Positions 59,923 through 60,110 of a DNA stretch of 64,000 bases are shown piece after piece. The stretch comes from Eledone cirrhosa. Its lineage: Eukaryota. A program made the translations under genes and the position numbers. Under the pieces are notes generated by a model that was given only the letters and a program-made list of their open reading frames with translations, searched no databases and had not been told where the DNA came from. The stretch lies in contig OZ024757.1 in the NCBI GenBank assembly GCA_964016885.1, positions 38,564,001-38,628,000 on the forward strand, written 5' to 3'. Numbering within the stretch: position 1 is the stretch's first letter; each line of letters opens with the position of its first letter.

Positions 59923-59923
<1 letters not shown>

Positions 59924-60110
59924 AAGGAATTGTGGTAAGGAACCAGATGGACCATAACGCACCAGAGTACTCAATACTTAGGGTAGTAGAGTGGGAAATA
60001 GGAAAACGTATGACCCCGACGGCAGAGCTCAAGCCGTTTCGACGGCTATTGTCCAGAAATAGCCGCCGAAACGGCTTCAGCTCTGCCGTCGGGGTCATAC
60101 TTTTTCCTAT
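59923..60110 (-). mobile_element. Best-preserved copy of PLE-associated hairpin/tail family
   Basis: 53-bp inverted arms 59998-60050 and 60058-60110 (50/53 matched) around a 7-nt loop, plus a 75-bp tail; (TA)n on both sides. Confidence 0.85.

What the first reader, a model, noticed from the sequence alone, without database searches (positions are those of the whole stretch)
59923..60110. Mobile family in which a hammerhead became a near-perfect hairpin
Seen: each 53-bp arm carries a hammerhead 3' half (stem II strand-GAAA-CGGC[TTGAGCTCT]GCCG-TC/GGGGTC), but where CUGANGA should be there is a mirror image of that half, centred on the stem II loop. Copies at 546, 6368 and 8990 show remnants of the same two-arm layout, and 13981 has the tail only, so the foldback form has itself spread. 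Inference: a template switch created a ribozyme-dead, hairpin-ended non-autonomous PLE derivative. It could self-prime reverse transcription, be cleaved in trans by a CUGANGA strand, or yield siRNAs against its parent.
Basis: partly seen in the sequence, partly recalled or inferred. Interest (0 to 1): 0.7.

Follow-up and report, generated by a model that had tools for sequence, protein, structure and literature searches.

The report
Aborted two-ended Penelope-type insertion
This hairpin is the shortest and commonest form of insertion left by a Penelope-type jumping gene: two short copies of the element's end lie head to head, likely made anew at each insertion when both copying reactions run off the RNA at a fixed point inside its self-cutting motif, which would expose how these elements insert.

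Summary
The hairpin is real (53-bp arms, 94%). Its parent exists: a Hydra-clade Penelope-like element with a type I hammerhead whose core is UUGANAA, not CUGANGA. The foldback is not a spreading derivative. Its exact centre occurs 4 times in 3 Gb, 58 sampled centres give 47 strings, and the commonest centre recurs on at least 7 parental variants and in both orientations. Arms range from 20 bp to kilobases. Three regularities stand out. 78 of 80 insertions pair one tailed with one tail-less arm. 66 of 195 arms stop 40-41 nt upstream of the cut site, at an initiator-like TYAGT inside loop II. None of 20 long-ORF copies stops there. Best reading: both target strands prime reverse transcription, one at each of two start sites, and both cDNAs run off a probably capped RNA 5' end and are joined. 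No RNA data were available. The scan met a similar inverted end in another genome and judged it ordinary (e1-9539494).

The parts
59918..59997 (-). PLE 'tail' (+21 to about +100 from the hammerhead cut site); in full elements it runs on into the ORF leader; the outer end merges with (TA)n
59998..60050 (-). Tailed arm: parent positions -33 to +20 (stem II 3' strand, GAAA, stem III, cut site between 60018 and 60017, stem I 3' strand)
60051..60110 (+). Tail-less arm: parent positions -40 to +20, cut site between 60090 and 60091; its first 7 nt form the apparent hairpin loop and begin one base after the A of the initiator-like TTAGT
59891..59919 (.). (TA)n target repeat, left
60108..60122 (.). (TA)n target repeat, right
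546..662 (+). Decayed copy of an older subfamily: remnant inverted arm, then sense arm and tail
6363..6492 (.). Subfamily C-like copy: tail (- strand) joined directly to a tail-less arm (+ strand), with no duplicated arm
8990..9088 (.). Subfamily C-like copy: one inverted arm ending near -26, joined to part of a tail
13978..14039 (+). Outer part of a tail only, in (TA)n

Best explanation
The hairpin is a minimal head-to-head insertion of a Hydra-clade Penelope-like retroelement into (TA)n, likely made anew each time when both cut target strands prime reverse transcription and both cDNAs run off the RNA 40-41 nt upstream of the hammerhead cut site, at what is probably a capped transcription start inside loop II. 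Shown: the parent and its UUGANAA hammerhead; two fixed outer ends (+20 and about +100); one of each per insertion; the pile-up of inner ends at -40/-41; recurrence in three subfamilies; no stop at that point in long-ORF copies. Inferred: (1) the endonuclease cuts both strands of (TA)n. (2) One 3' end primes at +20 and the other at about +100; both sites end in TAT and may pair with the repeat. (3) Most templates begin at -41, so both cDNAs are short 'strong-stop' products that never reach the 5' half of the ribozyme. (4) The two cDNA ends are trimmed and joined, most often through the near-palindrome GGAC. (5) Long arms and full copies come from a second RNA pool that passes -41 (read-through of tandem copies, or circles). 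The product is a dead end with no demonstrated function.
For: Parent: pLTR-ORF-pLTR copies with RT and C-terminal GIY-YIG. Hammerhead: 95% of cells paired, 3 pairs changed on both sides in stem II, N7 free. Continuum: paired arms from 20 bp to over 4 kb apart; 70 of 89 tail-selected insertions are foldbacks under 130 bp and 8 have a whole core. Pairing: 78 of 80 insertions with both arms found have one tailed and one tail-less arm; 37 of 40 in a sample picked by centre. Stop: 66 of 195 arms end at -40/-41 and 36 pass it; 7 of 26 scored arms in subfamily B and 8 of 22 in C end at -40 to -42. TYAGT at that point in 93 of 111 whole-core arms. Several copies have both arms ending at -40/-41 with extra bases between (L129, L132, L150, L172, L188). 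Three-part inserts jump from about -41 into the leader of a second copy (L297, L312, L317). Of 20 long-ORF copies, 18 continue past -41 and none stops there, which argues against a pause on every template. After -41 the next cDNA base is C 22, G 18, T 0. The two arms of a copy match each other better than in any of 2000 shuffles. In vitro, a PLE cleaves and extends both strands and starts at two sites that bound the tail (PMC11167929).
Against: No RNA evidence for a start at -41. The simple prediction that full-length copies begin at -41 failed (0 of 20), so a second RNA pool has to be assumed. The extra C is weak: most Cs can be read from the partner arm, and G is nearly as common. The TATA-like box 29-31 nt upstream in subfamilies A and B is absent in C. 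TYAGT might be kept for a tertiary contact of the ribozyme instead. 93 of 195 arms end short of -40, some of them miscalled by ungapped scoring. One centre is very common (636 hits), and in a pooled, partly similarity-picked set it was lopsided 17:2, although the sample picked by centre was 18:19. The samples for the end counts are the first hits on one contig and come from exact patterns, so they favour young copies.
Confidence: 0.62

Rival explanations
1. Same two-cDNA product, but the -41 end is made after transcription (exonuclease halted by bound PLE protein or structure, or slicing by a small-RNA complex), not by a promoter.
For: Explains the pile-up and the absence of a second-pass stop equally well. 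No TATA-like box in subfamily C. The extra-base signal is mixed (C 22, G 18).
Against: The stop falls on the A of an initiator-like motif kept while the rest of loop II diverges. Untemplated C follows -41 in L132, L150, L154, L172. PLE promoters lie in the pLTR (PMC2377424, PMC3846280; passages).
Confidence: 0.2
2. One reading: one template switch made a ribozyme-dead foldback that is transcribed and mobilised in trans as a non-autonomous element.
For: Thousands of near-identical short copies. One centre has 636 exact hits and was lopsided 17:2 in a pooled set. A derivative lacking the 5' half of the ribozyme does appear to have served as a template once (273-bp tandem, L327).
Against: The finding's centre occurs 4 times. 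47 centre strings in 58 copies. The common centre occurs on at least 7 parental variants, matched in both arms, 18:19 in orientation. No shared private changes among its copies, apart from one pair with shared flanks. Foldbacks lack the sequence 3' of the start sites that the studied PLE needs (PMC11167929). L327 is a direct tandem, not a foldback.
Confidence: 0.07
3. One cDNA runs to -41, snaps back on itself and copies itself into the second arm (self-priming, as proposed for PLE palindromes).
For: Many centres form small hairpin loops. Arms of one copy share rare changes (L369, L375). Self-priming was proposed in PMC3846280 (passages).
Against: The tail-less arm is the longer one in 19 of 37 copies, which snap-back cannot make, since a tail-less cDNA holds no tail to copy. 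Copies exist with both arms full to -41 and inserts between, and copies with a tail joined to an arm without any duplication (window 6368, L202).
Confidence: 0.08
4. Terminal inverted repeats of a DNA MITE with a central deletion.
For: Inverted arms inside TA repeats, high copy number.
Against: The arms are the end of an RT-coding PLE; the tail is on one side only; longer copies extend both arms into the same 3' UTR and ORF.
Confidence: 0.01

Closest known systems
Inverted, 5'-truncated pLTR insertions with optional tail of endonuclease-bearing PLEs (PMC8557442 Fig. 2 legend; PMC3846280; PMC2377424; passages)
   Same: Head-to-head copies of the 3' end, tail on one side, microsatellite target, variable truncation.
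   Different: Here most insertions are minimal (70 of 89), stop at one point inside hammerhead loop II, and carry a 75-80 nt tail instead of 30-40 nt.
Hydra clade of PLEs (PMC8557442, section read, supplement searched)
   Same: RWR for RWK, DKT, CxCX5C linker, CxxC and CxH near the C terminus, no CCHH, (TA)n target, hammerhead in the pLTR.
   Different: Not Hydra-1_Obim (different protein and DNA); U3-A8 core; very long stem-loop II; cut-to-cut unit 3.6-3.7 kb because of a long 3' UTR.
Poseidon PAc of Anolis (PMC11167929, parts 1-2 of 4 read)
   Same: Both strands cut and extended, two internal start sites bounding the tail, predicted dimer.
   Different: The parts read do not report one start site per strand or a fixed 5' stop; its ORF starts inside the ribozyme, here about 190 nt after the cut.
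U3-A8 hammerheads of Schistosoma PLEs (PMC4209133, part 1 of 4 read)
   Same: Same covariant core; pairs on opposite strands 100-700 bp apart were noted.
   Different: Those are minimal motifs; here helix III is a stable 5-bp stem.
Twin priming of LINE-1 and retroviral strong-stop DNA (recalled; twin priming also in passages of 10.1101/2024.12.14.628481)
   Same: Two primers at one break give an inversion; short cDNA runs off the RNA 5' end.
   Different: Twin priming gives no duplication, while here both arms usually copy the same 60 nt; there is no tRNA primer or LTR.
Non-LTR retrozymes (10.64898/2026.07.22.740005, part 1 of 5 read)
   Same: Short PLE-derived, hammerhead-related repeats.
   Different: Retrozymes are direct tandems with whole ribozymes; this is inverted and has no core.

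Membership tests
Penelope-like element insertion (EN+) | Parent ORF with RT and C-terminal GIY-YIG endonuclease | tested here: met
   By motifs read in translations; Pfam scans gave no family; 1099 relatives, mostly about 700 aa
Penelope-like element insertion (EN+) | pLTR from partial tandem, inverted truncated copy, one-sided tail | tested here: met
   L109, L110, L329, L330
Hydra clade | RWK-like motif, DKT, CxCX5C linker, CxxC and CxH, no CCHH | tested here: met
   RLRWR, SDKTG, CNCPDRSSC, CNLC, CKH in L109 against the text
Hydra clade | Insertion into (TA)n | tested here: met
   69 of 89 tails end directly in a TA repeat
Hydra clade | Placement in an RT tree with reference PLEs | not tested
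   No tree was built; no named reference set was held as loci
Type I hammerhead (parent) | Three helices and conserved core with a 3-8 pair | tested here: met
   no Rfam hammerhead hit on a parent copy; the minimum-energy fold of one copy gave the three-way junction but z only -1.5
Type I hammerhead (parent) | Self-cleavage | not testable with these tools
   Only a hint: both joints of L318 lie at the cut site
Type I hammerhead (the finding itself) | 5' core strand present | tested here: not met
   No core anywhere in the window
Non-autonomous retroelement (self-spreading foldback) | Copies share one internal structure inherited from a master | tested here: not met
Non-LTR retrozyme | Direct tandem units each with a whole hammerhead | tested here: not met
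   Inverted and coreless
DNA MITE | TIRs at both outer ends, derived from a DNA transposon | tested here: not met
   One-sided tail; parent encodes RT

The most novel reading that the evidence does not exclude
These foldbacks are fossil strong-stop products that reveal the PLE integration cycle. A protein dimer primes both target strands, one subunit at each RNA start site. The element's promoter sits inside hammerhead loop II, so the main capped RNA carries only half a ribozyme at its 5' end and gives only aborted inserts. Productive copies with pLTRs come from a separate read-through or circular RNA. This would explain together the tail, the inverted pLTR and the role of the ribozyme.
Probability: 0.35. 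Interest if true: 0.75.

Novelty: new variant of a known kind. Interest (0 to 1): 0.45.

Why it matters
How PLEs make inverted pLTRs and one-sided tails is stated as unresolved in the papers read (PMC8557442, PMC2377424, PMC11167929). Thousands of minimal inserts give base-exact predictions for an in vitro or RNA test: start sites at +20 and about +100, one per strand, a template end at -41, and preferred joining registers. They also warn that such copies look like MITEs or microRNA hairpins to annotation tools. The single copy in the window is an ordinary dead remnant.

Tried and rejected
Rfam on the whole window: the 150 listed of 614 hits were repeat-driven matches below threshold, none a hammerhead. 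Rfam on a parent copy: no hammerhead model matched. Pfam on parent ORF pieces and five relatives and a PDB sequence search: nothing informative. The protein atlas did not answer. Phage DNA search: no match. Sequencing runs: no RNA holder listed. The one listed run X1 (contigs, kind unknown, share 0.24, possibly the assembly's own sample) was laid: it shows loose TA ends at the +20 and +100 points and two joints at about -41, but contigs cannot show RNA starts, so it is not used as support. Genome-wide counts of tail/tail and no-tail/no-tail foldbacks by gapped pattern could not be run; samples were used instead. My first label 'Neptune' was dropped for Hydra. My prediction that full-length copies start at -41 failed. 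TATA plus initiator as a family-wide promoter was weakened by subfamily C. The single-RNA versus two-RNA question stays open: the partner arm ranked first for both arms in 4 of 15 listed pairs (one of them, L063, short and overlapping), and L116 is discordant, perhaps two insertions. One search was a script error. Literature searches found no paper describing a fixed stop inside a PLE hammerhead or one start site per side. Subscription journals, Repbase and Dfam were not searchable, and bioRxiv supplements are closed, so the family or the pattern may be recorded there.

Full report
Observation. At 59923-60110 two 53-nt arms, 94% complementary, lie 7 nt apart between (TA)n runs. Both strands fold at about -115 kcal/mol, z about -15. 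The genome is 3.0 Gb in 1796 contigs and rich in microsatellites; I guess an octopus from size and repeats (recalled, untested). The search listed 2494 candidates and scored 40, all full-length at 92-100% identity. An exact 33-mer of the arm-tail joint occurs 1976 times and an exact 29-mer of the tail-less end 3258 times. Positions below count from the hammerhead cut site.

Parent. [quoted passage not shown] L109 and L110 show inverted piece, pLTR, ORF, pLTR; there the tail runs on into the ORF leader. The protein has RWR, DKT, a CxCX5C linker, CxxC and CxH, which are the Hydra-clade marks in PMC8557442 (section read). It is not Hydra-1_Obim (supplement searched). No tree was built. The core pattern has 2006 exact hits; of the first 100 listed, 87 are TTGANAA, 13 CTGANAA and none has G8. 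A looser search found 59 G8 cores, 11 of them canonical. On 18 hand-picked copies from three subfamilies, 95% of cells pair and three stem II pairs change on both sides; those changes separate subfamily C from A and B and may be few events. The U3-A8 core is known from PLEs (PMC4209133, part 1 read).

Anatomy of the finding. The tailed arm spans -33 to about +100 on the minus strand; the tail-less arm spans -40 to +20 on the plus strand. The 7-nt loop is simply the extra length of the longer arm. The four other window copies have four different joints.

Did the foldback spread? Among 89 insertions picked by the tail joint (one local duplicate dropped), 70 are foldbacks under 130 bp, 8 have a whole core and 11 are neither. 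The 58 whose centre could be cut out give 47 strings, some differing only by later point changes. The finding's own centre has 4 exact hits, 3 in one orientation and 1 in the other. The commonest centre has 636 hits. A pooled, partly similarity-picked set showed it lopsided 17:2, which favoured a master, so I fetched 40 of the first 100 listed places. The tail is on the long arm in 18 and on the short arm in 19; 2 have no tail, 1 is truncated. They fall on at least 7 parental variants, matched between the two arms better than in any of 2000 shuffles. Subfamilies B and C (4967 and 2353 exact arm hits) have their own foldbacks. Shared flanks mark only local duplicates such as L169/L170. The foldback is therefore remade, not inherited.

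Regularities. In 114 rows (89 tail-picked, 25 more picked by the tail-less end; 6 duplicates dropped; L190 and L191 are one insertion), both arms were found in 81 rows, or 80 insertions: 78 tailed plus tail-less, 1 tailed on both sides, 1 on neither. Of 195 arms, 40 end at -41, 26 at -40, 36 go further and 93 end shorter; ungapped scoring miscalls some of the short ones. In B, 7 of 26 scored arms end at -40 to -42 (4 more are scored at -45 through overlap with the partner, 4 of 30 unscored); in C, 8 of 22 (8 of 30 unscored). Base -41 is the A of TYAGT in 93 of 111 whole-core arms while the rest of loop II diverges; this matches the initiator consensus as I recall it. A TATA-like box lies 29-31 nt upstream in A and B but not in C. 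After -41 the next cDNA base is C 22, G 18, T 0; about 12 of the Gs belong to the commonest centre, and most Cs can be read from the partner, so a cap-copied C is only suggested. The commonest spacing between cut sites is 76 nt (20 of 81 rows), the register in which two ends pair through GGAC (inferred). Of 30 of the 102 copies whose tail runs into the leader, 20 carry 1.3 kb or more of ORF; 18 of these continue past -41, 2 are joined elsewhere, none stops there. Three short ones jump from about -41 into a second copy's leader.

Mechanism. In vitro, a PLE protein cuts and extends both strands and starts at two internal sites that bound the tail (PMC11167929, parts 1-2 read). Applied here (inferred): each target end primes at one site; most templates begin at -41, so both cDNAs are short; they are trimmed and joined. 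The missing half of the ribozyme was never copied rather than replaced. Because long copies do not stop at -41, the stop belongs to a class of RNA ends rather than to a pause, and long copies need a second RNA pool. Tandem full-length copies exist (L329, L330) and could supply read-through RNA; circles are possible but not shown. PLE promoters are known to lie in the pLTR (PMC2377424 and PMC3846280, passages). In a plant retrozyme the start lies upstream of a working ribozyme (PMC12029980, section read), unlike the position proposed here. Whether -41 is a capped start (favoured) or a processed end is untested.

Known versus new. That note's hint that the halves come from different parents is mostly not seen here. 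An octopus repeat annotation mentions PLEs but no hammerheads (PMC13282606, passages). I found no report of the one-of-each rule or of a fixed stop in loop II (searches; open-access texts only).

Verdict. The copy is a dead remnant, but the family records PLE integration at base resolution. Interest 0.45.

Noticed in passing
L327 (G000:C3:214146000-214148600): Five to six head-to-tail units of 273-274 bp (-63 to +211) with one identical joint, also present in the inverted arm. The unit lacks the ribozyme core. It suggests a circular or internally deleted RNA template; units alternate in pairs, so later duplication or misassembly may add to it.
   Followed up: partly
L318; also L184, L306, L310: Joints at or within 3 nt of the hammerhead cut site, a hint that cleaved RNA is sometimes the template.
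   Followed up: no
L057, L065, L066, L304, L313: A subfamily with core CUGAGAA (C3 facing A8, no 3-8 pair) still spread: 7 of 72 arms. Rare CUGAGGA copies exist. The ribozyme may be dispensable.
   Followed up: no
L329, L330: Tandem full-length elements about 3.6-3.7 kb apart, with long open frames of 406 and 517 aa.
   Followed up: partly
window 61525-61903: Another repeat with 59-nt inverted ends (75%) ending in (TA)n and an internal poly-pyrimidine stretch; the same end appears beside L020, L032, L034, L104. Probably a second TA-targeting family.
   Followed up: no
L369, L375, L362: Both arms of one copy share a rare change at the same place, pointing to one source RNA or later conversion between arms.
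   Followed up: partly
L104:tail end: One tail extends 9 nt further to a third TAT-ending site in the leader.
   Followed up: no
L036:1611-3028: A non-LTR element fragment with a PHD-like cysteine cluster and RT motifs directly after the PLE end.
   Followed up: no
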